Source: an uncultured Candidatus Saccharibacteria bacterium (GTDB taxonomy: Bacteria > Patescibacteriota > Minisyncoccia > Phycocordibacterales > DATGWK01). From it: 42,995 nucleotides of DNA. The stretch's first letter is position 1. Each line of letters begins with the position of its first letter. The DNA lies in contig CAYMIB010000002.1 in NCBI GenBank assembly GCA_964390475.1, forward strand, positions 1 to 42,995, written 5' to 3'. Shown piece after piece: positions 15,294 to 32,255 of the stretch. The notes beneath the pieces were generated by a model. It saw only the letters and a program-made list of their open reading frames with translations, was not told the DNA's origin and searched no databases. Position numbers and translations under genes: made by a program.

Positions 15294-15334
15294 TAGATAT
15301 TAGACAAGTGACACAAAGATATCGGATACCGCGT

Positions 15335-18146: not shown

Positions 18147-18926
18147 CTACTTCTTACCTTCAGCTAGAACATTTTGAAGTTCGCGAACCAAGTCGTCCAA
18201 AACGATACTTGCCTTAACGAGAAACCGGGCGGCGCCGAGCTTTTTAGCTCTTTCAATTTCATTATTTTGAGAAAAGTTGGAGAGGAAAATAACCGGAATG
18301 CTTTTGATTCGATCGTCAGATTTAATTTTTTCCAAAACATCGAAACCACTAATACCTGGCAATAGAATGTCGAGAATAATTATGTCTGGAGTTTCTTTTT
18401 CCAAAACCTGCAATGCCTCTTCACCGGTTCGGGCGTAAAGCAGTCGGCATCCTTGACCACCTAATTTTCTAGAGATTAGATCGCTTAGGAATTGATCGTC
18501 CTCGACCCACATAACCTTTTTTCCGGCCAAGGCGTTGGTCGCATCGTCGTTTTTCTTTGGCTTGCTGAGCTGAGTGTTGACCTTAACGACAAACTCATCG
18601 AGATTAAGCTGAGATTTTACCAAATAGTCTTTGACTCCGAGGTTCAGAGCGTTTTTGATTTCAGAAAGATCACCGGAACGAGAAATAATGATGGTTGGAA
18701 TTTCGGCCAAACCTTTGTCGTTTTGTTTGTCTTTAAGAAGAGAAAGTGGATCGGTGCTAGTTAGCTCCATGTCGAGTACAACCAAATCCGGCTTCGCTAG
18801 GTGAATTTGCTCAAGAGCGACAACGCCGCTGTGAACAATTAAAACCTCATGACCAGCGTCTTTTAGCTTTTGCTCGATGATATTCCCTAGGAAATTATCT
18901 TGCTCGACAAGTAGAATTTTTTTCAT
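18147..18926 (-). CDS. Response regulator with two tandem receiver (REC) domains and no output domain
   Basis: 259 aa. REC1 runs KKILLVEQD...DLVVLDMEL. REC2 runs KKVMWVEDD...DIIILDILLPGISGFDVL...K. Adjacent to a histidine kinase. Confidence 0.8.
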   Translation of the reverse strand: MKKILLVEQDNFLGNIIEQKLKDAGHEVLIVHSGVVALEQIHLAKPDLVVLDMELTSTDPLSLLKDKQNDKGLAEIPTIIISRSGDLSEIKNALNLGVKDYLVKSQLNLDEFVVKVNTQLSKPKKNDDATNALAGKKVMWVEDDQFLSDLISRKLGGQGCRLLYARTGEEALQVLEKETPDIIILDILLPGISGFDVLEKIKSDDRIKSIPVIFLSNFSQNNEIERAKKLGAARFLVKASIVLDDLVRELQNVLAEGKK

Positions 18927-18971
18927 TGTTTTGAGTTTTGTGAGTTTATTACTTTAAAATTATACCACCAT

Positions 18972-20408
18972 TCAATGTTTCAATGGCAAGGTGATGTGGA
19001 AGGTTGTACCTTTCCCCTCTTCGCTTTCAAAAGTCATGTCGCCACCGTGACGAGTGATGATGGTTTTAACGATAAAAAGACCGAGGCCAGAGCCCTCTGG
19101 GTCAAGCGCCTTGGCGTTGTCGGCCCGAAAGAAACGATTAAAGATATTTGACTGCTGATCCTTTGGAATTCCAATGCCGTTGTCGGAGACCGTAACATTC
19201 ATGGTGTTTGGATCCTTTAGTTTGAAATCGATAGTGATAGTACCACCAGATTTTGTATATTTTAGAGAATTTTCAATAAGGTTTTGAAAAACCGCTCGCA
19301 TTTTCTGTGGATCAATAGAAACCTTTGGTAGATTTTCTTCTTTTGTTATGACCAAACCAACATTTCGACGCTTCGATTCATTTCCAACTTCATCAATGAT
19401 GTTGTTAACGAGGTCAACGATGTCGATATCAAGAAAAGAAAAACCCATGGCGCCGGATTCAATTCGGTCAACACCAAGCATGTCGCGTATCAAATTAATA
19501 ATTCGCTCGTTGTATTCATAAGCCTTCATAAGAAGCGCTCTCTGTTCGGTGGTCAAAGGACCAACGTCGTTGGTTTTCAGCAAGGTGTCCAGTGTCCATT
19601 TAATAGCCGAAAGCGGCGTACGCAACTGATGCGAAACGGTCGAAACGAATTCTGATTTATCTTTATTTAGCTGTTCGAAACGCTCGTTTTGCTTTGTTAA
19701 GTCCAGATCCTTGCGAACTAACTGACGAGCATAGCTGTTGTAAGCCTCGTTTAGAAGTCGAAGGCGTTCGGCCTGGAGCTGAGCTCGACGACGACCCTCC
19801 GAGAGTTGTTCCTCGCGATTTTTAATAACCGAAGTCAGGTAACCCGCCAAGGCGCCAACAATAAAATAAATGGCGGTGGTGGTGATCGTCGAAGTCAGAG
19901 TAACCAAAAACTGATCCCAAGACATCACTCCATCGCCAGGGTAACCAGGAATGTTCTCGAGAAGGTGGTAATACTCGAGCACAACCATACTGTTTATAAA
20001 AAAACCGGAAACAAAAGCAATAATGAGAGAACCAACAACATCGAAGAGAATAATCGACGAAACGATAGGAATAAAGAAGAAAATCGGCGCGACACTTTCG
20101 GCACCGCCTGACAAATGAAGAATTATAGTGAAAAACAGTAGCTCGGAGCAGATCTGACTGATCGCCACGATGTTCAGATACTGACTTTTGTTATGCGATT
20201 CAATGTAGCTGACGAGTTTATAAAAAACCACGTTCATTAAGATGAACGAGAAAAAAAGGAAAAGCATCGTCGGCACCGGGAAAAAGTTTTTTCCCAATGG
20301 ATCGAGCTTTGAAAGCAGGCCCATAGCAAAAAGCGTCGGCGCATAAAACCAACGGGCCTTAATCATCCACCGATTGGCTTCAAATTTGTTTTGATGAACT
20401 AATTTCAC
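18972..20408 (-). CDS. Sensor histidine kinase (multi-TM N-terminus, HisKA + HATPase_c)
   Basis: 478 aa. H-box FVSTVSHQLRTPLSAI; N/G boxes DNGIGIP and GSGLGLFIVK. Confidence 0.85.
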   Translation of the reverse strand: MKLVHQNKFEANRWMIKARWFYAPTLFAMGLLSKLDPLGKNFFPVPTMLFLFFSFILMNVVFYKLVSYIESHNKSQYLNIVAISQICSELLFFTIILHLSGGAESVAPIFFFIPIVSSIILFDVVGSLIIAFVSGFFINSMVVLEYYHLLENIPGYPGDGVMSWDQFLVTLTSTITTTAIYFIVGALAGYLTSVIKNREEQLSEGRRRAQLQAERLRLLNEAYNSYARQLVRKDLDLTKQNERFEQLNKDKSEFVSTVSHQLRTPLSAIKWTLDTLLKTNDVGPLTTEQRALLMKAYEYNERIINLIRDMLGVDRIESGAMGFSFLDIDIVDLVNNIIDEVGNESKRRNVGLVITKEENLPKVSIDPQKMRAVFQNLIENSLKYTKSGGTITIDFKLKDPNTMNVTVSDNGIGIPKDQQSNIFNRFFRADNAKALDPEGSGLGLFIVKTIITRHGGDMTFESEEGKGTTFHITLPLKH

Positions 20409-20557: not shown

Positions 20558-21202
20558 ATGGTCTATATTTTTCTGGATGAATCTGGCGATTTGGGCTTTA
20601 ATTTTAAAAAGAAGAAAACTTCGAGGTATTTTATTATTACTGCCCTATTAACAAAAAATAAGACTCAGCTGGAGAAAATAGTTAAGAAAATATTTAGGGA
20701 CCTTGCTCCGAATGAAATTAAAACCCGCGGTGGAACATTGCACGCTCACAAAGAAAGTCCGAAAACAAGGCAAAAATTACTCGGATTATTTCACAATCAA
20801 ACGGGTACAAATATTGCTGTTATTTATATAAAGAAACAGATAGCTCACACAAACTTATTCAAGAAAAAACATCATTTATATTCTCAAATTATAAATGAAT
20901 TGCTCAGTAGAATATGTGAGAAAGAACTAATACCAAAAAATGAGATACTTCACATTTACGCTTCAAGAAGAGAGACCAACCGATCTCTGAATACTCACTT
21001 TTCCTCCTATCTTAAAAAGGAGTTAGAAACCCATTATAAAATAAGTGCTGAGATTTGTGTTCTTTCACCGTCGGCTGAAAAGGGTCTGCAGGTTGCTGAT
21101 ATGATCTCCTGGTCAATTTTCAGAAAATATGAACACGGTGACATAACTTACTACGAGACCATAGCAAAGGAAATTATTGAGGAAAATCAATTACACCCGT
21201 AG
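20558..21202 (+). CDS. DUF3800-family protein
   Basis: 214 aa. The N-terminal VYIFLDESGDLGF motif is typical of DUF3800. It is the only + strand gene in this stretch. Confidence 0.6.
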   Translation: MVYIFLDESGDLGFNFKKKKTSRYFIITALLTKNKTQLEKIVKKIFRDLAPNEIKTRGGTLHAHKESPKTRQKLLGLFHNQTGTNIAVIYIKKQIAHTNLFKKKHHLYSQIINELLSRICEKELIPKNEILHIYASRRETNRSLNTHFSSYLKKELETHYKISAEICVLSPSAEKGLQVADMISWSIFRKYEHGDITYYETIAKEIIEENQLHP

Positions 21203-21318: not shown

Positions 21319-23376
21319 TTATTTCTTATTTTGATATAAGCGTTCCAACTCCGCGATCTCATCGCGTAAAATCGCCGCGGTTTCGAAGTCGAGGATTTTT
21401 ACGGCATTAGACATTTGAAGCTTTTTTTCTTTGAGCAAACCTTTTGGTTTCTTTTTGAAAATTTGAGCGTCGATGGCGAGCAGATTCTGGACAGCCTTTG
21501 AATGTTCGCTTCGCATACTTTCTGAAATATCTCGAATCGCCTTGCTAATCGTTTTCGGAGTAATGCCGTGTTTTTTATTGTATTCGAGTTGAAGGGTTCG
21601 GCGGCGGTTGGTTTCGCCTATCGCTCGTTCCATCGAGCCAGTTACACGGTCGGCGTAAAGCACGACTTCACCCTCGATATTTCGAGCGGCGCGGCCGATA
21701 ATCTGTATTAGCGACGTTTCTGAACGCAAAAAACCTTCCTTATCAGCGTCGAGGATGCCGATGAAAGCCAATTCGGGCAAATCGAGACCTTCTCGAAGCA
21801 GGTTGACGCCAACAAGCACGTCGAACTCGCCACGGCGGAAACGAGTCAAAATTTCTATGCGCTCGATGGTCAAAATGTCACTATGTAAATATTCCGCTTT
21901 GATTTTTCGCTCTTTCAAAAACTCGCTCAGATCTTCCGCCATTTTTTTGGTCAGAGTGGTTGCAACCGCTCGATGCCCGCGTTTTATAAAATCTTCGGCT
22001 TTTTCTATGAAGTCCTGAACTTGGCCTTTGTAGGCGTTTTTCCCACCAGAGGCGCCGACCGAGCTCGCCATCACCGGCAACACGGTAATTTTCGGATCAA
22101 TCAAACCAGTCGGGCGAATCACCTGCTCGACAACATTTTCGCTATGCTCTGCTTCATATTTTCCCGGCGTCGCAGAAGTGTAAATCACCTGCCCGACTCG
22201 TTCCTCAAATTCATTGAACTTCAAGGGGCGGTTGTCTCGGGCTGACGGCAAACGAAAACCGTGATCAATGAGGGTTTTCTTTCGAGCCGCATCGCCGTTA
22301 TACATACCACCAATTTGCGGCACGGTGACATGCGATTCATCAATGATTGTCAGGAAATCCGGCGAACCGTCGGCTTTATGCGGAAAATATGAGAGTAAAG
22401 AATCTGGCGCATCACCAGCGATCCGTCCAGAAAAATGACGCGAATAATTTTCGATTCCACTGCAATAGCCAATTTCGCGGATCAGAGCTAGATCATACCG
22501 AGTGCGACGCTTGAGACGTTCGTGTTCGAGCACCTTGCCTTCTTTTTTAAAAAGTTTGAGCTGTTCTTCGAGTTCAGACTCGATCGTTTTAAGCGCATGT
22601 TCCACTTGCTCAGGGTTGGTAATGAAATGCTTTGCTGGAAAAAGAAAGAAAACTTTTACATCTTCCAAAATAGTGCCCGAAACACCCTCAATTTTTTTAA
22701 TGCTCACAATCTCATCGCCGTTTTTTCCAGTCCCGAGCTCGAGTCGATACACCACTTTTTCGTTGACAGGCATGATTTCGATCGAATTGCCCACCGCTCG
22801 GAATAAACCAGGGGTCAAGTCGGCATTGGTTCGTTCAAAATGAAGACCAATGAGAGCACGCATAAAATCGCCGCGATAGATTCCCTGCCCGCGCTCGATT
22901 CGCATATTTACTTTTTCGTACTCCACTGGACTACCAAGGCCATAAATACACGACACCGAAGCAACAATGATCACATCCTTCCTAGTGAGCAAAGCTTGAG
23001 TCGACGCGTGCCGAAGGCGGTCGATTTCTTCATTTATCTGTGCTTCCTTCTCTATATATGTATCCGTCACCGGCATATAGGCTTCCGGCTGATAATAGTC
23101 GTAGTAGGAAACAAAATAATGCACGGCGTTGTTAGGGAAAAATTCGCGATATTCCTGGGCAAGCTGAGCGGCCAGAGTTTTGTTGTGGGCAATAACCAGC
23201 GTCGGTTTGCCGGCGTTTGCAATGACATTGGCCACCGTAAACGTTTTTCCCGAGCCAGTTACGCCAAAAAGCGTCTGATGCTGCAGACCTTTTTTGAGTC
23301 CGTCAGTTAGACCTTGGATCGCCTTAGGCTGATCACCGGCCGGGGCGAATTCGGATTTGAGGTTAAAGAGGGACAT
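21319..23376 (-). CDS. uvrB: Excinuclease ABC subunit B
   Basis: 685 aa. GVTGSGKT, IIDESHVT and the C-terminal UVR motif FETAAILRDEIAELE. Confidence 0.95.
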   Translation of the reverse strand: MSLFNLKSEFAPAGDQPKAIQGLTDGLKKGLQHQTLFGVTGSGKTFTVANVIANAGKPTLVIAHNKTLAAQLAQEYREFFPNNAVHYFVSYYDYYQPEAYMPVTDTYIEKEAQINEEIDRLRHASTQALLTRKDVIIVASVSCIYGLGSPVEYEKVNMRIERGQGIYRGDFMRALIGLHFERTNADLTPGLFRAVGNSIEIMPVNEKVVYRLELGTGKNGDEIVSIKKIEGVSGTILEDVKVFFLFPAKHFITNPEQVEHALKTIESELEEQLKLFKKEGKVLEHERLKRRTRYDLALIREIGYCSGIENYSRHFSGRIAGDAPDSLLSYFPHKADGSPDFLTIIDESHVTVPQIGGMYNGDAARKKTLIDHGFRLPSARDNRPLKFNEFEERVGQVIYTSATPGKYEAEHSENVVEQVIRPTGLIDPKITVLPVMASSVGASGGKNAYKGQVQDFIEKAEDFIKRGHRAVATTLTKKMAEDLSEFLKERKIKAEYLHSDILTIERIEILTRFRRGEFDVLVGVNLLREGLDLPELAFIGILDADKEGFLRSETSLIQIIGRAARNIEGEVVLYADRVTGSMERAIGETNRRRTLQLEYNKKHGITPKTISKAIRDISESMRSEHSKAVQNLLAIDAQIFKKKPKGLLKEKKLQMSNAVKILDFETAAILRDEIAELERLYQNKK

Positions 23377-23426
23377 TACGGTAGTTATAGCATAATCACG
23401 ATAAAAATTTTAGAGAAATTAAAAAA

Positions 23427-23453
23427 ACGCGGAGTGTCCGAAGACCCCCGCGT
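23427..23453 (-). terminator. Strong intrinsic terminator ending the helicase/hairpin-tail transcript
   Basis: Minus strand: ACGCGGgggtc-TTCG-gacactCCGCGT followed by TTTTTTT. The loop is a cUUCGg tetraloop. This is the first terminator-like structure downstream of the helicase stop. Confidence 0.75.
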
Positions 23454-23456
23454 CTG

Positions 23457-24101
23457 TAGAAGAGAAAAGAACAACTAACTAGACAGAACCCTACGAAACT
23501 GAACACCAGAAACGCCCACAAAGCCTTTCAGCAATGTGAGCCTGTACTCGACCCGAGATCACTGAACAGTACTGCACGATACCACGCATCACATGGCGAT
23601 AATCGAATAGTGCGAGACGTTTTTCAACGCCCTGCACTCTGAACTACAACGAACAAAAGAGGACTTGGCGACACAGTACAATGCGCCAGTAAATCGAACT
23701 CAAATGTACACGAAAGGCCTTTCGGCTTCTCGTGTCGGCACAGAAGATCACAGGAGGCCACCGAACTACAGGTCACGACGCTACAGAGAACCTAACTGGA
23801 CTCAATCAGAAACGCACCAAGGACCTTCCGGCCTCCGGTGCCTGTACCAATCAATACTGTACCTAACAGTACACGACACCAGGTCACTAGAATTACAAGT
23901 GCACAGAAGCCCTTTCGGATTTCTGTGCCGATAGAGAACCGGACCTTAGGGTGCTCTAGAATACAGAACTCCACGGGACAGCACTTAACCTAAAATTGCA
24001 CAGAGTGATCGAAAGATTACTCTGTGCCTAAAGTACACCATACTGTACTCAGCGACACAGAGCGGCAGAGTACAAAAGTGAACCATGTGTCCGGCTACAA
24101 A
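23457..24101 (-). ncRNA. Hairpin-unit tail downstream of the helicase ORF (six hairpin units, no intervening terminator)
   Basis: Family hairpins at 23514-23541, 23610-23637, 23708-23735, 23814-23841, 23901-23928 and 23998-24027. Five are 28 nt (12 bp + GAAA/GGAA on the minus strand) and one is 30 nt. Spacing is 87-106 nt. No credible ORF, and no promoter or terminator between the helicase stop (24102) and 23453. Confidence 0.55.
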
Positions 24102-25940
24102 TTAGAGAAGCAGCTTCTCTGCATCCTTCACCGCGGCGTCAAACGTCAGGTCGCCCATGTAGACTTGCTGAAGATGTTTGGGCAGTGAAGCGAAGACGTG
24201 GCGACGGAACTGTTGGGAAATGAAGAACGTGACGCCAACATCGGAGCGGCTCCGAATGTTGCGTCCACGAACCTGAAGCGCTTGTTGCATTGCCCGCTGA
24301 CCCCAGATCGCCCAGCGCTGACCTCCCCACCGATCCTCCTCGAACTGAGTTCCAGGATCACGAGGGTTTGGATAACTTGGACGAAGAAAAAAGATGACGG
24401 GCGCCATCTGCCTTGGAAGATCAATTCCCTCGGCGTAGTTGGCGGCGGTACCAACCAAAGTACTTCCTTCACCCTGCTTGAAGATGTTGGCAGCTTCCTT
24501 GGCTGTTACACCGTTGCCGTAGCTGATTACCTCGAGACCCTCTTCTGCGGCCATCCGCAAAAAACGATCTCGTTCATCATTTGAAACGACAACCACCAAC
24601 GAACGTAGCCCCTTGTCGGCAAACTGCTTGCATGAACGTGCAATCTGACGCAACGTTTTTGGCAGATCCCGATCGCTCCGCGTATTTCTTGCGAGGTTTG
24701 GCGTGTCGGTTGGCATGTAGACCCTTGTATTGCTGGCTGGGAAATTCGAATCGAGAGACAGGAACGGATCCTTGATCCCCGTTTCGAACCCAAAGATCTC
24801 AGGGTTGCCAATCGTTGCCGACAGCGACACCCGGTTCTTAGGCAAAATCATTTTGATGAGCGGCACTACGTAGTAGCACCGCACCACCAACTTGGTTTGG
24901 AACCGACCTTCTGAGACACGTTCCCTTCTCTGGAATGCGCAGGTGTAGTTGAGTGCCTTCCTTTCTTCGGTTGGCACTGAATACTCAAGCGTTGAGATGT
25001 ACCGCCTGAGATCTCTCACGAGAGTCTCGAGCTTTTTCAATGTGACACGATCCTCACGTGGATCGATCTTGCCCTTTTTCACAGCATCTCTGATAGCAAC
25101 AGCAAGCTCTTTCACATCGATTTCCCGGAGGATTTCGATGAGTTGAAGAACTTGTGCTGGCTTGAGAAGCGCTGCTTCACCAACTGCCATGCGACCAGCG
25201 ATTGAAATCATCTTTCGCCTGAATGTCCTCAGGACTCTTGCGACCTTTGGGGCAACTGACGTCAGAATTTCTTCTGATCGCTTGAGGTGTAGATCAGTAA
25301 TGTCGTAGGAAAGAGAGTTGCGGACGACGTTTGCCAACTGATGCGCCTCGTCGATCACCACACCTTGAGTATTGAACTCCTTTGAAAACAAGTGGGTGAA
25401 GAGAAAGAAGGACATCGTTGAGAGCACAAGCCGTGCTTTCTTTGCCTTATACTTTTGCTGAAGATACGGGCAAGCCGTTGCTCCCTTCACATGAGTCTCG
25501 CCCGTTTCTTGGTCTACCCGATGCGGGCAGTCCTGAAGAAATGAACACGGAATCTGATCGGCACGAGGATTTTCTGGATCATCGACAAGTGTTTCAAGCG
25601 TTTCCGATGAAACTCTCGGCTCGTTCCGGTAATACAAGCACGGATGCTCATTTCGTCCCAAAGCAACTGGCAGATCCGGAAACTCTATCCGAATCTGATC
25701 CAAAATCGTCTTGGTCGGCGTAATGATGAACACCGTACCGTCTGTCTGCGTTCGCATGTAGTTTGCGATCGCAAATTCCACAGCCGTTTTTCCTGTCCCT
25801 GTCGGCGCCTCGATGATTGCAGAGCCATGCTCCGCGTAAAACTCGAGCATGTCGTTTTGCACAACTCGTGGCTCACGATACACCGCCGTGCTTGGAAAGT
25901 GCGTTTTAAGCACTGGCAAGCTGATGGTCTTTTGGCCCAT
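24102..25940 (-). CDS. DinG/XPD (Rad3)-family SF2 helicase with four-Cys Fe-S cluster insertion
   Basis: 612 aa. Strong SD (gaAAGGAGGtccataATG). Walker A APTGTGKT. Cys cluster HPCLYY..IPCSFLQDCPH..ACPYLQ. DEAH box VVIDEAHQL. Motif VI QALQVRGRNIRSRSDVGVTFF. Confidence 0.8.
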   Translation of the reverse strand: MGQKTISLPVLKTHFPSTAVYREPRVVQNDMLEFYAEHGSAIIEAPTGTGKTAVEFAIANYMRTQTDGTVFIITPTKTILDQIRIEFPDLPVALGRNEHPCLYYRNEPRVSSETLETLVDDPENPRADQIPCSFLQDCPHRVDQETGETHVKGATACPYLQQKYKAKKARLVLSTMSFFLFTHLFSKEFNTQGVVIDEAHQLANVVRNSLSYDITDLHLKRSEEILTSVAPKVARVLRTFRRKMISIAGRMAVGEAALLKPAQVLQLIEILREIDVKELAVAIRDAVKKGKIDPREDRVTLKKLETLVRDLRRYISTLEYSVPTEERKALNYTCAFQRRERVSEGRFQTKLVVRCYYVVPLIKMILPKNRVSLSATIGNPEIFGFETGIKDPFLSLDSNFPASNTRVYMPTDTPNLARNTRSDRDLPKTLRQIARSCKQFADKGLRSLVVVVSNDERDRFLRMAAEEGLEVISYGNGVTAKEAANIFKQGEGSTLVGTAANYAEGIDLPRQMAPVIFFLRPSYPNPRDPGTQFEEDRWGGQRWAIWGQRAMQQALQVRGRNIRSRSDVGVTFFISQQFRRHVFASLPKHLQQVYMGDLTFDAAVKDAEKLLL

Positions 25941-26007
25941 TATGGACCTCCTTTCGATGTTACGATGTTACTTTAACGCTCAAACATTAAACAAAAAAAC
26001 AGAACTG

Positions 26008-26026
26008 AAACGCACACGATGCGTTT
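26008..26026 (-). promoter_or_regulatory. Hairpin in the helicase 5' leader (possible attenuator or bidirectional terminator)
   Basis: AAACGCA-n5-TGCGTTT. On the + strand it is followed directly by TTTTTTT. On the minus strand it is preceded by an A-run and followed by cagttctgttttttt. Confidence 0.35.
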
Positions 26027-26060
26027 TTTTGTCAAAAAGCTTAAATTACCTCCGGGCGCG

Positions 26061-26089
26061 AGAATATCACATTTATTTTAATTTGTAAA
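26061..26089 (-). promoter_or_regulatory. Extended -10 sigma70 promoter for the helicase transcript
   Basis: Minus strand: TTTACAaattaaaataaatgTGaTATTCT with a 17-nt spacer. Same design as the array promoters. Confidence 0.6.
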
Positions 26090-26114
26090 GCATTGGTCGC
26101 ACGTCTCGCTAGCA

Positions 26115-26383
26115 TAAAAAATGCCAGCAAATCTTTCGAAATGCTGGCCTGCACTATAGGAAACTGCACAATACGTAACATTACCTCACTCTACTTCGAT
26201 CAAATTGTCGGTTGCAGATTTCTCAGCAACCGACCAGTAGACCAGAAAAACTTACGGGACATTACCATGGTGTACGATACCCCACAGTATGAAGTGTCGA
26301 TCGAGTTTTTCAACCCGACCGACCCGCGCAGAACAATACCCTGCCGGACCGTAGACTTGTTAACTGAACCACGGGGCTTGTTC
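26115..26383 (-). ncRNA. Hairpin-RNA unit U7 (2 hairpins)
   Basis: Runs from the promoter in module A to the terminator GCCAGCAtttc-GAAA-gatttGCTGGC + AUUUUUU (26123-26148). Family hairpins at 26207-26234 and 26295-26322. Confidence 0.55.
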
Positions 26384-26389
26384 GATATT

Positions 26390-26446
26390 AGAATAACACG
26401 CCAGATTTGGCTTGTAAAGTAAAAGCCGAGGGTTGGGTACCTCGGC
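26390..26446 (-). promoter_or_regulatory. Fused terminator-promoter module A
   Basis: Minus strand: GCCGAGG-tacccaac-CCTCGGC cttttacTTTACA -17 nt- TGtTATTCT. The hairpin is at 26425-26446, the -35 at 26413-26418 and the -10 at 26390-26395. Confidence 0.6.
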
Positions 26447-26809
26447 GAGTAGAACACGGAGCTGAAGGCAAGGGCACGTTAGAAAGGTTGACCCTACGAC
26501 ACTGAACCGGAAGTGTTGGCTTTGTGTTCCCACAAAACTAACCTATAGAGAACTGAACATAACTCGAGTGTAGGATACCTAGCTGGACTCTAATGAAATT
26601 GTCAGTTCGACCTTTCGACCAAACTGACCTATAGGAAAGGAAACGCGAGATCACAACGCTGGACAGTACTCCACCTGACGCTACTCAACATTACTCAACT
26701 AAAATTGTCATCCGGATTTTTCAACCCAGATGACCCATAGAATGCAGTACACCACCGCACGGCACCTCACACCACTTGAGGCTACTCAACATTACTGAAC
26801 CCAAGTTCC
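26417..26809 (-). ncRNA. Hairpin-RNA unit U6 (3 hairpins)
   Basis: Lies between the module B promoter and the module A terminator. Hairpins at 26515-26542, 26601-26628 and 26707-26734. Confidence 0.55.
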
Positions 26810-26815
26810 AAAAGG

Positions 26816-26872
26816 ATAATAACACGGAATATAATTTTTGTAAAATAAAAGCCGAGGGTTGATTACCTCGGC
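26816..26872 (-). promoter_or_regulatory. Fused terminator-promoter module B
   Basis: Minus strand: GCCGAGG-taatcaac-CCTCGGC ttttatTTTACA -17 nt- TGtTATTAT. Hairpin at 26851-26872, -35 at 26839-26844, -10 at 26816-26821. Confidence 0.65.
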
Positions 26873-27663
26873 GTACACTGTGGTCGACTTCGCATGACGA
26901 TACGAAACTAGACACGAACAAACTTGAAGTGTTGGCTGACCTTTTCAAGTCCGCCAACGAGCAGTGCGACAAACATTACTATAGTGCACAACACAATACA
27001 GTGCGCTATTTACCAGGTGGTCAAAAGTGTCAGTCGAGCCTTTCGGTCCAACTGACCCAAACATCACGTTAGGAGAGAGTGCCTTACTGCACAATACCTA
27101 GCCTGACAAGACCAGACAAATCGTCAGCGAGATCTTTGAACCTCGCTGACCCATACAGCAGTTTACTATTCCTTACTAGACTGAGCTATGCTCTAGAACA
27201 GTGAACCGCGTTTATCTATTACAATATCTCAACCGATTTTTTCAAACCGGTCGAGCCTTAGAATACCGTGATGTAGAAGACAGGAGACTACGTCGCCATA
27301 CTCGACCTGAGTCTACCCGACGGTGAAAATTTGTCAGTCCAGTTTTCACCAAACTGACCGAAAGTGGAGAACACTTAGGTATACGGCACAATACCGTACG
27401 ATACCCTGGCGAACTAAAACGTCAGTTCAACCTTCCGGCTAGACTGACCTACAGATAACTGAACCTGACTCGAACGCAGGTTACCTAGCTGGACTCTAAT
27501 GAAATTGTCAGTTCGACCTTTCGACCAAACTGACCGATAGAAAACTCAACTTGGCGGAACAAAACTGGACGCAACTAGAATTGTCATCCGGATTTTTCAA
27601 CCCAGATGACCAGTACTGCTCAGTAGCCAACTGCGCGGGACTCAACCTTGCAATACTCTATCC
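26843..27663 (-). ncRNA. Hairpin-RNA unit U5 (8 hairpins, longest unit)
   Basis: Hairpins at 26931-26958, 27029-27056, 27123-27150, 27228-27255, 27333-27358, 27421-27448, 27507-27534 and 27583-27610. Bounded by the module C promoter and the module B terminator. Confidence 0.55.
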
Positions 27664-27669
27664 GAATGC

Positions 27670-27724
27670 ATAATAACATGAATTATTTTTTTGTAAAATA
27701 AAAACCGAGGGTTGGTTACCTCGG
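27670..27724 (-). promoter_or_regulatory. Fused terminator-promoter module C
   Basis: Minus strand: CCGAGG-taaccaac-CCTCGG tttttatTTTACA -16 nt- TGtTATTAT. Hairpin at 27705-27724, -35 at 27692-27697, -10 at 27670-27675. Confidence 0.6.
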
Positions 27725-28099
27725 CGAAAAGCTAAGTGCCAATCACTTCTTTCGAAGAGAATGGCCCATACACAGCGGTACCGCACGCCAGGCCACCTGA
27801 CCTTACAGTGGTACACGAAGCTGAAATTGCTAGTCGAACTTTTCAGTTCGACTAGCCGGTACAAGACTCATGAGTACACGACCGAAGTCAACAGAACACT
27901 ACCGGAAATGTCAGCGTCACCTCTCGGCGAAACTGACCTACAGAGGAGTCAACACTGGGTTGCTGCACAAAACTCTACCTAACACTGCTACACGAAAGGA
28001 CAAAATGTCGAACTTGTGTTTCCACAAGATCGACCCTCAGAACACAAAGCCAGACTGGACAGAGCAACACACCACTAAACCATGTTATAAAAGCTGTCT
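27697..28099 (-). ncRNA. Hairpin-RNA unit U4 (4 hairpins)
   Basis: Hairpins at 27738-27765, 27829-27856 (perfect 12 bp + GAAA), 27910-27937 (GAGA loop) and 28007-28034. Confidence 0.55.
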
Positions 28100-28105
28100 A
28101 GCAAG

Positions 28106-28159
28106 ACAATAACACAAATTATTTTTTTGTAAAGAAAAACCGGCCACTTGGACCGGTTT
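28106..28159 (-). promoter_or_regulatory. Fused terminator-promoter module D (terminates the 86-aa ORF, promotes U4)
   Basis: Minus strand: AAACCGGtccaagtggCCGGTTT ttcTTTACA -16 nt- TGtTATTGT. The hairpin sequence differs from the other modules, but the promoter half is conserved. Confidence 0.6.
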
Positions 28160-28177
28160 GTGCTGTGACTCAGAGAT

Positions 28178-28438
28178 TCACTCGAACAAATAGAAGAGCT
28201 CTCCCTTCACGAGATCCTTCTCCTCAACCTCAATTTTCCCCTCAATCTCCTTAAGGATTTCTTTCCAATTCTCGGTGTTCTCACCAGTCCGGTATGTGAA
28301 TCTCTCAGCAATAGACTCACACCGTCCACCACCCTCTTGCCTTTGGCAGAGAATTCTGTCGGCCTCTTCCCGATTTTCAGCCAGAATCACGTAGCTGGTC
28401 AAGCCTGGTCCTGTGTAAATGTACGCCTTCAATTCCAT
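28178..28438 (-). CDS. Orphan 86-aa protein occupying one slot of the RNA-unit array
   Basis: The internal ATG at 28438 has the SD aAGGGGAaagtcATG. The track start at 28513 abuts the upstream terminator with no room for a promoter or RBS. Product MELKAYIYTGPGLTSYVILAENREEADRILCQ... has no motif I recognise. Confidence 0.6.
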   Translation of the reverse strand: MELKAYIYTGPGLTSYVILAENREEADRILCQRQEGGGRCESIAERFTYRTGENTENWKEILKEIEGKIEVEEKDLVKGELFYLFE

Positions 28439-28475
28439 GACTTTCCCCTTCGTTTGTGTGTTTGGATCTTTTCTC

Positions 28476-28504
28476 AGAGTATCATAAATATAAATACTTG
28501 TCAA
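28476..28504 (-). promoter_or_regulatory. Extended -10 promoter of the 86-aa ORF
   Basis: Minus strand: TTGACAagtatttatatttaTGaTACTCT with a 17-nt spacer. Confidence 0.55.
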
Positions 28505-28518
28505 ATGGACCATTCATA

Positions 28519-28800
28519 ATAAAAAAGTCGAGGATTGGTTACCTCGACGCGCACCAGGGTAAAGACTAGGCTACGAAACAAAACGGAACACTACTTTGCG
28601 AAATTGAAATTATTAGCTGAGCCTTTCGACCCAGCTAATCTACAGAGGAACAGACTGAGGTTAACGGTGCGATACGTTACCGTACGCCGCCTTAGACCAA
28701 ATTGTCAATCTCGCCTTTCAGCCAGACTGACCCGGAGAGTACTACAGTCAACAGCGGTAGACGGTAGATCACTGCACGTGAGTGAAGAACATCACGATCC
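28519..28800 (-). ncRNA. Hairpin-RNA unit U3 (2 hairpins)
   Basis: Hairpins at 28612-28639 (AUUAG.../...CUAAU base) and 28704-28731. Confidence 0.55.
28521..28548 (-). terminator. Terminator E (ends unit U3)
   Basis: Minus strand: GTCGAGG-taaccaat-CCTCGAC followed by TTTTTTATTAT. Same hairpin family as modules A-C, F and G, with a compensatory stem change. Confidence 0.65.
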
Positions 28801-28806
28801 GCACTC

Positions 28807-28862
28807 ACTATAACACGAATATCGTTTTTGTAAAATAAAAGCCAAGGGTTGGGTACCTCGGC
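28807..28862 (-). promoter_or_regulatory. Fused terminator-promoter module F
   Basis: Minus strand: GCCGAGG-tacccaac-CCTTGGC ttttatTTTACA -16 nt- TGtTATAGT. The stem has a G.U pair on the minus strand, which would be an A.C mismatch on the + strand. Confidence 0.6.
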
Positions 28863-29043
28863 GAGTAGGAAGGTGGACACCAGAAGACGATGCGAAACAC
28901 AACAGTAAAACACTGAACTTTATTTTTTTGAATTGTCAGCCCAGTTTTTCAACCGGACTGACCCGCAGACAACTACACAGCAGTAGAGTACACGTCACAT
29001 CACGCAACTCGACCGTGCAAAACGTAACCTCAATTACTTTTCT
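28833..29043 (-). ncRNA. Hairpin-RNA unit U2 (1 hairpin)
   Basis: Single hairpin at 28935-28962, identical in sequence to the inverted copy at 30833-30860. Confidence 0.55.
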
Positions 29044-29049
29044 TCAAAG

Positions 29050-29105
29050 ACAATAACATGGATTTATATTTTGTAAAATAAAAGCCAAGGATTGGTTACC
29101 TTGGC
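29050..29105 (-). promoter_or_regulatory. Fused terminator-promoter module G
   Basis: Minus strand: GCCAAGG-taaccaat-CCTTGGC ttttatTTTACA -16 nt- TGtTATTGT. The stem carries a compensatory G-C to A-U change relative to modules A-C. Confidence 0.6.
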
Positions 29106-29744
29106 GTAGAGTGGAGTACACAGAACGACACTGAAGAGTGCAAGAGGATACCGCACACCACGTCACCTCAGACCACGCTAAAGCGTCAGCTCGATTTTTC
29201 AATCAAGCTGACCCGTACCTGGGAATACAACAGCTTGCTGGACGAGAGACTAGCGTACACTACTGGACCAAAGCGTCAGCTTAGTTTTTCAACCAGGCTG
29301 ACCAGCACGGAAGTCCGGCCCACGAGACATGGCTAGACACCACTTCAAATTGTCGGCATCACCTTTCGGTGTAACCGACCGGCACAGAACTCTGCCGTAG
29401 CTTACAGGGCTATACGTAACAGAGCCACAGACAAAATTAAATTGTCGACCGTGTGTTTCCACAAGATCGACCCTTAGCACAGCACAGTTAACGGCAGAAC
29501 ACGGCAGTTCACGGCACTTGAGTGTAGATCAAAGTGTTAGCCCAGCATTTCTACCGGGTTAACCAGCAGTGTACATCACCGCACATTACCAAAGACGACG
29601 TCACGCTACGAAACCTCACTTCAAAATTGTTGGCACCGCGTCTCCGCGATGCCAACCCATAGAGCACCGGACGCGACCTGGCGATACCTAACAATACCTT
29701 GGGTGACAATACCCTGGGTGACTGTACCCAACTTAGATCGATCC
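29076..29744 (-). ncRNA. Hairpin-RNA unit U1 (6 hairpins)
   Basis: Hairpins at 29185-29212, 29275-29302, 29352-29379, 29444-29471, 29536-29563 and 29629-29656. The 5' end is inferred from the putative promoter at 29751-29779. Confidence 0.5.
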
Positions 29745-29750
29745 TCACAA

Positions 29751-29793
29751 AATCTACTATCATGTTGACACGAAGTCAACCGTATGTTAAGTT
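29751..29793. promoter_or_regulatory. Back-to-back divergent promoters sharing a palindromic -35 region
   Basis: + strand: TTGACAcgaagtcaaccgtaTGtTAAGTT (29765-29793, 17-nt spacer) for the 242-aa gene. Minus strand: TTGACT -17 nt- TAGATT (29779 down to 29751) for U1. gTTGAC-acgaa-GTCAAc is a perfect inverted repeat. Confidence 0.5.
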
Positions 29794-29880
29794 TCGCCCG
29801 GACTCAAGAGTGAGGGCGTTGTGCCGCTCGCCTGAGATTTCTTTCAAGGGCTTGAAAAAGCCACAGTACGGAGAAAGACC

Positions 29881-30609
29881 ATGAAGCGTTTGCTGATCAC
29901 GTGTGTTGGTGCGTATCCCATCATGATGGACCCGATGACTGATGAAGTGCTCGACAGCCTCGCAACAGGCGTCCGTGTTCAGATCCAGAAGGATCTGTCT
30001 CATGCCGATGTCGCTCGCAAGAAGATCTACCGCGAGAATGGCGACAAGGATGGTCGGATCGGCCTGCCGACCGAAATGCTTTTCGCGGCATTGGTTGCGG
30101 CAGGTCGCAAGGTTTCCTACCGAGGCAAAACCAATATCTCGACCGCTGAAACCTCCATGTTGCCCGGCCTGCTCACGATCAACGAGGACTTCCTGCCGTT
30201 CCCAATTCCGGACGGCGCGACCGAGCCGAAGTGGACGGTCGACAAGCGGCGTGGACGTCTGGAGAACGGTACGGCTGTGTGCTTGCGTCGTCCCAAGTTC
30301 GCCGACTGGGGTTTCGAGGTCACCATTGACTTCGATGACAAGGAGATCAGCGAGGGCAAGGTTCGAGAACTCTTCAACATCGCCGGCCGGTTCTGCGGAC
30401 TCGGATCTTTCCGACCGAGCTGCAAGGGTCCGTTTGGTCGGTTCGCGGTCCAGAAACTCGCCGACATCACGCCCACCGAATGGGCGAATGAGCCGGCTGA
30501 GGAAATCGAAGAGGGCGACGACACTGACCAGACTGGCGGCGAAGAGCGCCGGACTGGCAACAGTCATGGCAGGACCGGGACCAGGAACGGCGCGCTCGCG
30601 GGAGCTTGA
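29881..30609 (+). CDS. GC-rich 242-aa hypothetical protein with RAMP-like glycine-rich motif (possible RNA-binding/processing protein)
   Basis: SD acGGAGaaagaccATG. Of three overlapping long frames this is the only one with an RBS and a balanced composition. GLGSFRPSCKGPFGRF, near the end of the folded part, resembles the RAMP/Cas6-type G-rich loop (weak). Acidic disordered tail. The functional call is low confidence. Confidence 0.75.
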   Translation: MKRLLITCVGAYPIMMDPMTDEVLDSLATGVRVQIQKDLSHADVARKKIYRENGDKDGRIGLPTEMLFAALVAAGRKVSYRGKTNISTAETSMLPGLLTINEDFLPFPIPDGATEPKWTVDKRRGRLENGTAVCLRRPKFADWGFEVTIDFDDKEISEGKVRELFNIAGRFCGLGSFRPSCKGPFGRFAVQKLADITPTEWANEPAEEIEEGDDTDQTGGEERRTGNSHGRTGTRNGALAGA

Positions 30610-30698
30610 ACCGGCAACTGACGTTCTTCAGAAGGCAATGTTGTTTTGTAGTGCATAGTAAACAGCAGTTGCGTCATGCGCGTTTCTGTTCACTATCG

Positions 30699-30756
30699 CG
30701 GGCGTCCTGAAAAGGGCGCCCGTTTTTCTTTACTAAATCGAAATTTGTGTTATCTT
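30699..30756 (+). promoter_or_regulatory. Fused terminator-promoter module on the + strand
   Basis: CGGGCGTCCT-GAAA-AGGGCGCCCG (10 bp + GAAA) followed by TTTTTcTTTACT -16 nt- TGtTATCTT. Same layout as the minus-strand modules. Confidence 0.6.
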
Positions 30757-30762
30757 GGCGTT

Positions 30763-30964
30763 TGGACTCAAGTAGACTAGTGTTCCGTTGAGTACAGCAG
30801 GCTTGAGTATGGATCAGTTCTCTTTTCCGCGGGTCAGTCCGGTTGAAAAACTGGGCTGACGATTAGACCTCAGTTTTGTGTTCCACAGTTCGCTCGTGTG
30901 ACGTGATGTCCATTTAAGTTCCGTTTTCTGTCCGCCAGGGTATCCAATCCCTGGCTTTTATTTT
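30763..30964 (+). ncRNA. Inverted (plus-strand) hairpin-RNA unit, paralogue of U2
   Basis: Hairpin at 30833-30860 (GTCAGTCCGGTT-GAAA-AACTGGGCTGAC). Terminator GCCAGGG-tatccaat-CCCTGGC + TTTTATTTT at 30934-30964, abutting the tgt stop codon. Confidence 0.55.
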
Positions 30965-30965
30965 C

Positions 30966-32255
30966 TTACACTAGATACTTTCCCAAAAACCCCCCCTTAA
31001 ACTCCGCGAACTTCCCTTCTAAAATCGCTTGGCGCATGTTTTCTACCAAATGCACGATGAAATAAAGGTTATGAATGGTCGCCAGCGTCGCGGCCAACAT
31101 TTCATCGGCCCGAAACAAGTGTGATAGATAAGCTCTGGTGTAATTTTTGCAGGTATAGCATTCGCAGTCGGCGTCAGGCCGAGAAAAATCACGGACATAC
31201 TTTGCATTGGTGAGATTAATTTTTCCGCTCGCGGTGTACAGTCCACCGTTTCGAGCGACTCTGGTCGGCGCGACGCAGTCAAAAAGATCAACACCGTTTT
31301 CGACACCCATAAAAAGATCTTCTGGCTCGCCTATGCCGAGCAAATGTCGTGGTTTTTCTTTTGGTAAAATTTCGTTCACCCACTGTACGGCCGTGATCAT
31401 GTCTTCTTTGGCAAAAGAACCACCGATGCCGAAGCCATCGAAACTCTGACCAGAAGCTGGGCCGCGCATGTCGGCAATCGCCTGGGCGCTTTCTTTACGC
31501 AAAATCTCCGAACGGCCGCCCTGAACAATTCCAAAAAGAGCAATTGGCGGTTTGTCTGCGGCCGCCCGCTCGGCCGAAAGTTTTTGGTGATGTTCAAGCG
31601 ACCGCTTCGCCCAGCGATGAGTGCGATCGAGAGCTTCGCGTTGATAATGATTCGATTCGTGTGGCGAAGTACATTCATCAAAAGCAAAAATTATGTCGGC
31701 GCCGAGATTGTGCTGAATTTCCATCGACTTTTCCGGCGTGAAGTAATGCGCACTGCCGTCGAGATGCGACCGAAATGTCACACCGTTTGGATCAATCGAA
31801 GCGATTTTTGGTTTCTCCTCACTGTCGCGACCATTTCCACCACCAACACTTCCTTCAGTTCGTTCGGCAAGCTGTAGTTCTTCGTCGCCCTCCACTGCAT
31901 GACCTTTTACAATTTTGCTAATCCCCTTTCCATACGCCGCACCAAGAGAGAAAACCTGAAAACCGCCAGAGTCGGTCATGGTCGGCCCTGGCCAATTCAT
32001 AAATTTCTGCAAACCTCCAGCGTCACGAACGAGTTCATCGCCCGGCTGAAGAAAAAGGTGGTATGTGTTGGCCAAAACAACCTGCGCACCGGTCTCGCGA
32101 ATTTGCTCAGGGGTAAGCGACTTGATAGTGGCCTTAGTAGCCACGGGGACAAAAGCCGGGGTCAAAATAGTGCCGTGGGGAGTTATAAGTTCGCCCGCAC
32201 GAGCTCTCGTGCCAGGCAACTCGGCTTTTATATTGAAAACAAAAGGTTTTTTCAC
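30966..32255 (-). CDS. tgt: tRNA-guanine transglycosylase (queuine tRNA-ribosyltransferase) with internal insertion
   Basis: 429 aa. TPAFVPVATKATIKS, TDSGGFQVFSL, FDECT and the zinc site CECYTCKNYTRAYLSHL. Carries an extra acidic/Gly-rich segment after FSLG. Confidence 0.9.
   Translation of the reverse strand: MKKPFVFNIKAELPGTRARAGELITPHGTILTPAFVPVATKATIKSLTPEQIRETGAQVVLANTYHLFLQPGDELVRDAGGLQKFMNWPGPTMTDSGGFQVFSLGAAYGKGISKIVKGHAVEGDEELQLAERTEGSVGGGNGRDSEEKPKIASIDPNGVTFRSHLDGSAHYFTPEKSMEIQHNLGADIIFAFDECTSPHESNHYQREALDRTHRWAKRSLEHHQKLSAERAAADKPPIALFGIVQGGRSEILRKESAQAIADMRGPASGQSFDGFGIGGSFAKEDMITAVQWVNEILPKEKPRHLLGIGEPEDLFMGVENGVDLFDCVAPTRVARNGGLYTASGKINLTNAKYVRDFSRPDADCECYTCKNYTRAYLSHLFRADEMLAATLATIHNLYFIVHLVENMRQAILEGKFAEFKGGFLGKYLV

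What the first reader, a model, noticed from the sequence alone, without database searches (positions are those of the whole stretch)
26115..29744. Four independent signals place the functional RNA on the minus strand
1. The tetraloops read GNRA (GAAA, GGAA, GAGA) only on the minus strand. On the + strand they read UUUC, UUCC or UCUC.
2. Many stem positions are G.U wobbles on the minus strand and would be A.C mismatches on the + strand. Examples: 26295-26322 has two, 26601-26628 has three, and the stems of terminator modules F and hairpin 28704-28731 also show it.
3. The unit-boundary hairpins are followed by U-runs only on the minus strand.
4. The conserved TTTACA-16/17-TGnTATnnT promoter motif reads correctly only on the minus strand.

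One exception: the hairpin at 23998-24027 reads GAAA on the + strand and pairs slightly better there.
Basis: seen in the sequence. Interest (0 to 1): 0.6.

Follow-up and report, generated by a model that had tools for sequence, protein, structure and literature searches.

The report
Minus-strand guide-RNA array of VIPR system

Summary
All four strand signals check out, and two more agree. Of 25 strong hairpins in 26115-29744, 24 have GNRA loops on the minus strand and none on the plus strand. Stem wobbles run 44 G.U to 10 A.C in favour of minus. The terminator family is 6 of 6 on minus. The promoter motif has 7 sites on minus inside the array.

The linkers between hairpins carry G-U every 5 nt on the minus strand. 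The 242-aa ORF at 29881-30609 is a homologue of the SUSP1 Vipr protein (PDB 36pp, E 1.1e-11). The island at about 23430-30965 is therefore a VIPR locus as described in 2026 bioRxiv preprints. It holds a vipr gene, an XPD/DinG-like helicase as accessory, and about 40 vrRNAs. Each vrRNA is a (G-Y-N-N-N) tract of about 8-13 repeats followed by a 28-nt GNRA hairpin tail in fixed register. They sit in promoter/terminator units.

The GU strand equals the helicase strand in 15 of 15 related loci that show a signal. One extra unit downstream of vipr (30729-30965) lies on the plus strand. No RNA data exist.

This is a new member of a known, very recent kind.

The parts
23431..23452 (-). Intrinsic terminator (UUCG-type loop, then a U run) that probably ends the helicase-plus-left-array transcript.
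23600..24100 (-). Left vrRNA array downstream of the helicase stop. It has 5 tracts of G-Y pentamers, each followed by a 28-30-nt hairpin tail (tails at 23609-23638, 23708-23735, 23814-23841, 23901-23928, 23998-24027). The tail stems begin GCACAG rather than GUCAG.
   Evidence: AC lag-5 enrichment 3.1x.
24102..25940 (-). Accessory (vap-like) helicase of 612 aa, in the XPD/Rad3/DinG family.
   Evidence: Pfam Helicase_C_2, DEAD, DEAD_2. PADLOC typeIV_DinG PDLC01439, E 5.6e-41, full length. phrog_2488, E 1.4e-40. PDB XPD, E 4e-10. A homologue lies next to a Vipr gene in 26 of 62 loci (61 genome loci plus the window).
26061..26089 (-). Promoter of the same TTTACA/TGnTAT family, upstream of the helicase gene.
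26090..26418 (-). Unit U8: promoter 26390-26418, 2 hairpin-tailed vrRNAs (tails 26294-26325, 26207-26234) and 1 terminator-tailed tract (terminator about 26120-26150).
26425..26844 (-). Unit U7: promoter 26816-26844, 3 hairpin-tailed vrRNAs (tails 26707-26734, 26601-26628, 26515-26542), 1 tract, terminator 26425-26446.
26851..27697 (-). Unit U6: promoter 27670-27697, 8 hairpin-tailed vrRNAs, 1 tract, terminator 26851-26872.
27704..28133 (-). Unit U5: promoter 28106-28133, 3 hairpin-tailed vrRNAs (tails 28007-28034, 27910-27937, 27829-27856), a weakly periodic last tract, terminator 27704-27725.
   Evidence: last tract has only 4 qualifying pentamers.
28137..28513 (-). Inserted cassette U4: own TTGACA-type promoter, an orphan ORF (probably 86 aa, 28181-28438) and terminator 28137-28159. 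It has no 5-nt periodicity and is not a conserved part of the system.
   Evidence: 4 of 73 pentamers in phase. (no homologue in 63 loci). (only itself in 5.8 billion proteins). No Pfam, PADLOC, NCBIfam or PHROG hit.
28527..28834 (-). Unit U3: promoter 28807-28834, 2 hairpin-tailed vrRNAs (tails 28704-28731, 28612-28639), 1 tract, terminator 28527-28548.
28841..29077 (-). Unit U2: promoter 29050-29077, 1 hairpin-tailed vrRNA (tail 28935-28962), 1 tract, terminator 28841-28862.
29084..29779 (-). Unit U1: candidate promoter 29751-29779 (TTGACT-17-TAGATT), 6 hairpin-tailed vrRNAs, 1 tract, terminator 29084-29105.
29881..30609 (+). vipr gene (242 aa): a minimal RAMP-type RNA-binding protein with the G-loop motif GLGSFRP and a low-complexity C-terminal extension.
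   Evidence: PDB 36pp_D 'SUSP1 Vipr protein', E 1.1e-11 over residues 2-192. phrog_4652, E 4e-17. 40 homologues. 61 loci.
30695..30727 (+). Terminator hairpin of vipr (folds at -22.7 kcal/mol on plus, then a U run).
30729..30965 (+). Unit U10 on the PLUS strand: promoter 30729-30753, tract, tail 30833-30860, second tract, terminator about 30934-30965. The tail is a 32-nt inverted copy of 28931-28962.

Best explanation
The region is the guide-RNA array of a VIPR (Viral Interference Programmable Repeat) locus in a small, probably patescibacterial, genome.

How it is transcribed. Seven promoters of one family (TTTACA, 16-17 nt, TGnTATnnT) and one weaker promoter drive minus-strand transcripts, each ended by an intrinsic terminator. 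Each transcript carries 2-9 vrRNA modules. A module is a short AAUUY lead, about 8-13 pentamers with G (57%) and U (73%) fixed and three variable letters, a [C/G]U-R-Y-N-G junction, and a 12-bp hairpin capped by GNRA.

How it probably works. This follows from homology with the SUSP1 system and is not shown here. One Vipr protomer binds each pentamer and sequesters the G-Y letters. The variable letters are presented to read double-stranded DNA by gapped pairing. The hairpin tail marks the 3' end and sets the register of the filament.

The accessory gene is an XPD/DinG-like helicase. I infer that it acts on the bound target DNA, as DinG does in type IV-A CRISPR.

Shown here: the sequence anatomy, the strand asymmetry, covariation of the tails, homology of the protein, and the co-occurrence of protein, helicase and periodic RNA across genomes.

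Inferred: transcription, processing, filament assembly, DNA targeting and the helicase's role.
For: - Strand:.
- Periodicity: AC on plus is 3.0x enriched at lags 5, 10, 15 and 20 in 26100-29750 and in 23380-24100, but not in the helicase gene or in 1-20000. A logo of 527 in-phase pentamers gives G .57 / C .23, then U .73 / C .14, then three near-uniform positions.
- Tails: all 12 of 12 stem pairs show compensatory changes. 93.9% of cells are paired against 63.2% in shuffles, and 0 of 500 shuffles reach this. 26 of 30 tails sit at one offset from the pentamer phase, against an expectation of 1 in 5.
- Protein: profile A1 hits PDB 36pp 'SUSP1 Vipr protein' at E 1.1e-11 over the full length, and phrog_4652. 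The SUSP1 residues that hold G2 and Y3 (R138, W178, R179; read) align with R137, F177 and R178 here.
- Association: in the period-5 scan of the 61 genome loci, CPR-type loci have AC or GT periodicity next to the gene and non-CPR loci have (NNGGC)n beside it, mostly just upstream on its strand. The phages LESphi2 and Brocalys show (NNGGC)n just upstream.
- Synteny: the GU strand equals the helicase strand in 15 of 15 helicase-linked loci with a signal. The other 11 of the 26 gave no signal at my threshold.
- Literature: bioRxiv 10.64898/2026.04.26.720920 (Results, Discussion, the type-classification section and legend passages read). It reports vrRNAs of 9-16 YNNGG repeats followed by a 3' tail, alternative YNNNG repeats, and helicase or nuclease accessory genes in types III-V.
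Against: - No RNA evidence. All four runs that hold the stretch are DNA metagenomes from one study.
- The repeat core is only G-Y, not G-G-Y, and 43% of pentamers lack the G.
- The decoding rule for this variant is unknown. No target was found in the 828-kb assembly under four skip rules; observed best matches of 0.67-0.78 equal the shuffled controls.
- No processing enzyme or ribozyme was seen. Rfam gave nothing relevant.
- The tail at 23998-24027 pairs better on plus.
- The two SUSP1 residues that read the first G (H17, D177) are D17 and S176 here. That fits loss of the first G, but D is kept in 7 of 12 other G-Y loci, so the link is weak and is confounded by phylogeny.
Confidence: 0.85

Rival explanations
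1. A Vipr-bound RNA array whose job is not DNA targeting. Examples would be RNA targeting, a protein sponge or scaffold, or decoy ('solo') vrRNAs that titrate the Vipr of an invading element.
For: The repeat core differs from the characterised GGY. No target was found. The October 2026 preprint 10.64898/2026.10.15.759431 (passages read) shows that vrRNAs can act as decoys. Forty guides is far more than the four in SUSP1.
Against: vipr and a DNA helicase sit in the same island. The G2 and Y3 contact residues are conserved. The variable positions are near-uniform in composition, as expected for guides.
Confidence: 0.08
2. A degenerate CRISPR-like array (type IV-like), with the hairpins as repeats, the 46-103-nt linkers as spacers, and DinG as the effector.
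For: The helicase's best defence profile is typeIV_DinG. The layout is hairpin repeats with variable sequence between them.
Against: - The repeats are not identical. Mean column identity is 48% with compensatory stem changes.
- The 'spacers' carry a fixed G-U every 5 nt.
- No Cas profile hits the other ORFs.
- NCBIfam cas_csf4 scores 29 bits against a cut-off of 400.
- Each small group of repeats has its own promoter and terminator.
Confidence: 0.02
3. The signal is at DNA level or on the plus strand, for example iterons, REP-like elements or plus-strand A/C-rich transcripts.
For: One tail (23998-24027) is better on plus. vipr itself and unit U10 are on plus.
Against: The 44:10 G.U asymmetry, 28 of 30 GNRA loops, and terminators and promoters found only on minus inside the array. 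A DNA-level element would be strand-symmetric in its pairing.
Confidence: 0.02
4. A decayed, no longer functional VIPR remnant.
For: Many pentamers depart from G-U. An unrelated ORF cassette is inserted in the array. vipr is inverted relative to the usual order.
Against: vipr and the helicase are intact full-length ORFs. All promoter and terminator modules are intact. Tail stems are kept by compensatory change. L001, L002 and L003 share the helicase(-)/vipr(+) arrangement, and L001 and L002 hold long arrays.
Confidence: 0.03

Closest known systems
VIPR systems (Vipr protein plus vrRNA), as described for coliphage SUSP1 and a Pseudomonas fulva prophage. Sources: bioRxiv 10.64898/2026.04.26.720920 and 10.64898/2026.04.26.720927, and PDB 36pp.
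   Same: A homologous small RAMP-like protein (E 1.1e-11). A pentanucleotide-periodic RNA with a fixed purine-pyrimidine core and variable letters. A repeat tract followed by a structured 3' tail. An accessory gene next to it. Several vrRNAs per locus.
   Different: - The core is G-U plus three variable letters, not GGY plus two. This is the preprint's 'YNNNG' alternative, which it names only in its methods.
- The tail is a simple 12-bp GNRA hairpin rather than a pseudoknot.
- There are about 40 vrRNAs in ten promoter/terminator units instead of four.
- The accessory gene is an XPD/DinG-like helicase.
- The locus is chromosomal, between uvrB and tgt in a small genome, not in a phage.

Supplementary figures that may show this type (S16, S17, S21, S22) could not be seen.
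Non-canonical VIPR arrays found by a genomic language model. Source: bioRxiv 10.64898/2026.10.21.760802, passages read.
   Same: That preprint reports 21 clusters with period-5 motifs other than GGY, including WGT/NN, next to Vipr-like folds. WGT/NN fits the G-U core seen here.
   Different: I could not check whether those clusters include this lineage, its hairpin tails or its helicase. The position before G is only 59% A or T here.
Type IV-A CRISPR-Cas (Csf complex plus the DinG helicase Csf4).
   Same: An RNA-guided RAMP filament paired with a DinG-family helicase. The helicase's best defence-database match is a typeIV_DinG profile. The description of type IV-A is from my own knowledge.
   Different: No CRISPR repeats, no Csf1, Csf3 or Cas6, no spacers in the CRISPR sense, and the curated Csf4 model is not met (29 of 400 bits).

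Membership tests
VIPR system | A Vipr protein: a small RAMP homologue of about 20 kDa. | tested here: met
   Profile of 28 homologues against PDB gives 36pp_D 'SUSP1 Vipr protein', E 1.1e-11, residues 2-193 against 2-192. phrog_4652, E 4e-17. The core is about 195 aa plus a 47-aa tail.
VIPR system | RRM core, G-loop and thumb fold of Vipr. | not testable with these tools
Only alignment-level support exists: the G-loop motif and the R137, F177 and R178 equivalents of SUSP1 R138, W178 and R179.
VIPR system | vrRNA made of tandem pentanucleotide repeats with a conserved GGY (or related) core and variable letters. | tested here: met
   Period-5 enrichment of 3x. Logo G .57, U .73, then three near-uniform positions. 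This is the G-Y / NNN ('YNNNG') variant named in the preprint's methods, not canonical GGY/NN. The position before G is G in only 23% of pentamers.
VIPR system | A structured, conserved 3' tail directly after the repeat tract. | tested here: met
   30 hairpin tails, 12 of 12 pairs covarying, and 26 of 30 in one register with the tract. The tract precedes the tail only on the minus strand.
VIPR system | An accessory (vap) gene with a DNA-related function beside vipr. | tested here: met
   XPD/DinG-like helicase at 24102-25940. A homologue is linked to vipr in 26 of 62 loci. The preprint says types III-V carry nucleases or helicases.
VIPR system | vrRNAs are expressed and bound by Vipr. | not testable with these tools
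   No RNA run holds the stretch.
VIPR system | Gapped (skip-rule) recognition of a DNA target. | tested here: inconclusive
   No match above shuffled controls in the 828-kb assembly under the rules NNx, xNN, NNN and NNNx. Public collections were not scanned, because that would need a joined sequence to be typed.
CRISPR-Cas type IV-A | An array of near-identical direct repeats separated by unique spacers. | tested here: not met
   The hairpin copies have 48% mean column identity. The linkers have a fixed dinucleotide every 5 nt.
CRISPR-Cas type IV-A | Csf1/Csf2/Csf3 (or Cas6) genes and the Csf4 DinG. | tested here: not met
   There are no PADLOC or NCBIfam Cas hits for the 242-aa and 111-aa ORFs. 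TIGR03117 cas_csf4 scores 29 bits against a cut-off of 400. One typeIV_DinG profile does match over the full length.

The most novel reading that the evidence does not exclude
This helicase-linked G-Y/NNN lineage may read DNA by a different code from the published one, for example three letters per protomer or another skip length. It may hand the bound site to an XPD/DinG helicase in the way type IV-A CRISPR does. That would make it a living intermediate, or an independent parallel, between phage VIPR and DinG-dependent CRISPR interference. The GNRA-capped tail in strict register would then serve as the filament's nucleation or stop signal, and the multi-guide operons would imply a still unknown processing step at the AAUUY junctions.
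Probability: 0.2. Interest if true: 0.7.

Novelty: new member of a known kind. Interest (0 to 1): 0.42.

Why it matters
VIPR was described only in 2026 preprints as a minimal RNA-guided DNA-recognition system older than CRISPR. This window gives a clean, large natural example of its least characterised branch:

- about 40 guides;
- a G-Y core with three free letters;
- simple GNRA hairpin tails;
- dedicated promoter/terminator modules;
- a DinG/XPD-type helicase;
- a host chromosome of a tiny genome, where conventional CRISPR is, from my own knowledge, uncommon.

The strand call matters in practice. It fixes which letters are the guide, so targets can be searched for and the decoding rule of this branch can be tested.

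For the scan itself, a 5-nt dinucleotide autocorrelation next to a gene with the GLG[DS]FRP...GPFG motif is a quick and specific flag for such loci. In the period-5 scan of the 61 genome loci, 16 gave no signal and several more gave only a single window.

Tried and rejected
Rfam. Only two tRNAs elsewhere reach gathering score. In 23300-31000 at E<=1 there is one sub-threshold suhB-like match at 30664-30737 (25 bits against 41), which overlaps the vipr terminator and is taken as chance. No hammerhead or other ribozyme was found between the vrRNAs.

CRISPR reading. Rejected; see the rival explanations.

Coding reading. The ORFs listed inside the array (for example 26093-26422 on plus, 26200-26457 on minus) overlap hairpins and periodic tracts and were not pursued.

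Expression. No RNA holder is listed. Four DNA metagenome runs from one study hold the stretch. Laying their contigs showed no letter differences.

Self-targets. There are none above shuffled controls under four skip rules. The fifth rule, which is colinear, only finds the array itself.

D177-to-S hypothesis. I asked whether this change explains loss of the first G. Non-D residues occur only in G-Y loci (5 of 12 against 0 of 28), but 7 of 12 G-Y loci keep D. Positions 18 and 19 (P-M against R/K-F) separate the two classes better. The classes are also clades, so this is no more than a lead.

Literature. Searches (periodicity terms) found nothing relevant. One search found the VIPR preprint and one search found three more. 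In search 79 (vrRNA with Patescibacteria, Saccharibacteria, DinG or XPD) none of the 12 listed papers holds 'vrRNA'. In the main VIPR preprint the words Patescibacteria, Saccharibacteria, CPR, DinG and XPD do not occur.

Not done. I did not scan the viral or metagenome collections for targets of the guides. The query would be a sequence joined from separate letters of the window, which may not be typed.

Full report
**What is there.** The window is a 43-kb stretch of a small assembly (828 kb in 74 contigs) with about 40-45% G+C. Between uvrB (21319-23376, minus) and tgt (30966-32255, minus) lies an island of higher G+C, 0.45-0.55. It holds three ORFs and about 4.5 kb without credible ORFs. The finding covers the largest non-coding part.

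**Check of the four signals.** I catalogued 30 strong hairpins with 4-nt loops.
- Loops: on the minus strand they read GAAA 23, GGAA 3, GAGA 2, CAAA 1 and UUUC 1. On the plus strand only one reads GNRA. Inside 26115-29744 the counts are 24 of 25 on minus and 0 of 25 on plus.
- Wobbles: in 29 tails x 12 stem pairs there are 286 Watson-Crick pairs, and 44 G.U against 10 A.C on minus.
- Folding: minus folds are more stable in 48 of 50 candidates. That list was seeded on the minus strand. The same search finds 58 hairpins on minus and 20 on plus.
- Terminators: 18 of 20 terminator-like sites are on minus. One family (CCTYGRYTTTT) has 6 of 6 on minus against 0.55 expected.
- Promoters: TTTAC-N14/15-TGNTAT occurs 8 times in the window against 0.13 expected. 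Seven are on minus at 26064-29077 and one is on plus at 30729.

All four observations are therefore real and far beyond chance.

On the plus strand the dinucleotide AC recurs every 5 nt. It is 3.0-fold enriched at lags 5, 10, 15 and 20, both in 26100-29750 and in 23380-24100, but not in the helicase gene or in 1-20000. Read on the minus strand, 527 in-phase pentamers give G .57 / C .23, then U .73 / C .14, then three near-uniform positions. Each tract runs from just after one hairpin to the next. In 26 of 30 cases it keeps one fixed offset to the following hairpin. Three of the four exceptions are hairpins whose coordinates I had trimmed or extended by one base, which I take to explain their offsets. 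The flanks are conserved: [C/G]U-R-Y-N-G before the stem and A-A/C-U-U-Y after it. The stems covary. All 12 of 12 pairs show compensatory changes, 93.9% of cells are paired against 63.2% in shuffles, and 0 of 500 shuffles reach this. These are paralogues within one genome.

**The proteins.**
- The 612-aa ORF (24102-25940, minus) is an XPD/Rad3/DinG-type helicase. Evidence: Pfam Helicase_C_2, DEAD and DEAD_2; PADLOC typeIV_DinG PDLC01439, E 5.6e-41 over the full length; phrog_2488; XPD in PDB. It fails the curated Csf4 model, with 29 bits against a cut-off of 400.
- The 242-aa ORF (29881-30609, plus) has no Pfam, PADLOC or NCBIfam hit. It has 40 homologues, matches phrog_4652, and as a profile matches PDB 36pp 'SUSP1 Vipr protein' at E 1.1e-11 end to end.
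- The third ORF (probably 86 aa, 28181-28438, minus) has its own promoter and terminator, no periodicity and no relatives.

**Relatives.** A scan of one genome per species found 61 loci encoding a relative of the 242-aa protein. A period-5 scan splits them into two groups.
- Loci labelled Patescibacteria or Saccharibacteria carry G-U (or G-C) pentamers, with no G preference at the preceding position (16-34% G).
- Loci from Magnetococcales, Victivallales, Planctomycetes, Desulfovibrionaceae and others carry (NNGGC)n next to the gene, mostly just upstream on its strand.

The phages Pseudomonas LESphi2 and Mycobacterium Brocalys have the same (NNGGC)n just upstream of the gene.

Clustering of neighbours shows the helicase next to the gene in 26 of 62 loci. 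The usual order is vipr, then 1-3 kb of non-coding DNA, then the helicase, all on one strand. In the window and in L001-L003 the helicase and vipr lie on opposite strands. Where a periodic signal is detectable (15 of 26 loci), the GU strand is always the helicase strand. GNRA-capped hairpins lie mostly on that strand too, for example 16 to 0 in L001 and 7 to 0 in L002. L003 goes the other way, 0 to 3.

**Identification.** A literature search led to bioRxiv 10.64898/2026.04.26.720920. I read its outline, Results, Discussion, type-classification section and legend passages. It describes VIPR systems as follows:
- a minimal RAMP protein (Vipr), an accessory gene (vap), and vrRNAs of 9-16 YNNGG repeats followed by a structured 3' tail;
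- vrRNAs that read double-stranded DNA through the variable letters with one target base skipped per repeat;
- seven types, of which types III-V carry nucleases or helicases;
- alternative repeats NNNGG, YNNNG and NNNNG.

The companion structure preprint 10.64898/2026.04.26.720927 (outline and one Results section read) shows one protomer per repeat. G1 is held by H17 and D177, G2 by R138 and W178, and Y3 by R179 and neighbouring residues. A third preprint (10.64898/2026.10.15.759431, passages) describes decoy 'solo' vrRNAs. A fourth (10.64898/2026.10.21.760802, passages) reports non-canonical period-5 motifs, including WGT/NN, next to Vipr-like folds.

The window's locus fits this family feature by feature (see Membership tests). 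It belongs to the G-Y/NNN, helicase-linked branch.

**Bearing on the strand question.** The conserved letters read G-Y only on the minus strand, and the tract precedes the tail only on the minus strand. The exception at 23998-24027 is a true outlier in loop and pairing (-21.1 kcal/mol on plus against -16.0 on minus). It nevertheless stands in the normal tail position behind a minus-strand tract that begins right after the helicase stop codon. I therefore read it as a variant tail, not a plus-strand RNA.

One unit does lie on the plus strand, downstream of vipr. It has a promoter at 30729-30753, two tracts, a tail at 30833-30860 and a terminator near 30934-30965. Its tail is a 32-nt inverted copy of the tail region at 28931-28962.

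**Anatomy.** On the minus strand there are seven vrRNA units (U1-U3 and U5-U8) with 7, 2, 3, 4, 9, 4 and 3 modules, the inserted ORF cassette (U4), and the helicase transcript followed by at least 5 modules. With the two plus-strand modules this gives about 39-41 vrRNAs. I scored 37 tails on the minus strand, and 36 of them have at least 8 qualifying pentamers.

**Mechanism.** By homology, Vipr protomers should polymerise on the G-Y repeats and present the variable letters to DNA. The residues that hold G2 and Y3 in SUSP1 are conserved here, as R137, F177 and R178. Those that hold G1 are replaced (D17, S176), which fits the loss of the first G. This last link is weak, because 7 of 12 G-Y loci keep the aspartate.

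The helicase's role, the processing of multi-guide transcripts, the decoding rule and the targets are all open. No self-target exists in the assembly. No RNA data are available.

**Novelty.** The system is known, though only from 2026 preprints. This locus is a new and unusually large member of its least described branch. The main texts I could read do not mention GNRA hairpin tails, Patescibacteria or DinG/XPD. The supplements, which I could not open, may cover them.

Noticed in passing
window 28931-28962 (minus) and 30829-30860 (plus): A 32-nt perfect inverted repeat made of two copies of one vrRNA tail brackets vipr and units U1-U2. In run X4 one contig (depth 5.5, 208 letters on the shorter side) joins 28934 to 30860 on opposite strands. 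This is either a population variant in which the vipr segment is inverted or an assembly artefact at a repeat just over the word length.
   Followed up: partly
window 28122-28504: The orphan 86-aa ORF cassette inside the array has its own TTGACA-type promoter and terminator. Run X1 holds a contig with this stretch between different flanks, so the cassette may be mobile or shared with another genome.
   Followed up: partly
window 29069-29116: Runs X2 and X3 each hold a contig that shares the terminator-promoter module but continues into unlike sequence on both sides. This suggests that strains in the same habitat carry other guide units behind the same module.
   Followed up: no
L048 340-2230: A deltaproteobacterial MAG contig has roughly 17-20 consecutive canonical (NNGGC)n units upstream of its vipr gene. 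Each ends in a fixed GGCAAGG-type motif plus a T run.
   Followed up: partly
L062 4580-4960 (Pseudomonas phage LESphi2) and L063 4580-4810 (Mycobacterium phage Brocalys, gp45): Two cultured, named phages carry unannotated (NNGGC)n tracts just upstream of 'hypothetical protein' genes that are Vipr homologues. In LESphi2 the tracts are followed by hairpins, one of them with a UUCG loop on the gene's strand.
   Followed up: partly
window 26527-26765 and 27433-27641: A segmental duplication of two to three vrRNA modules between units U7 and U6 (74-80% identity). In the one guide pair compared by eye, differences fall mostly at the variable pentamer positions (7 variable against 1 fixed).
   Followed up: partly
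window 20558-21202: A DUF3800 protein (E 3e-16) lies just beyond uvrB. I did not examine whether it relates to the island.
   Followed up: no
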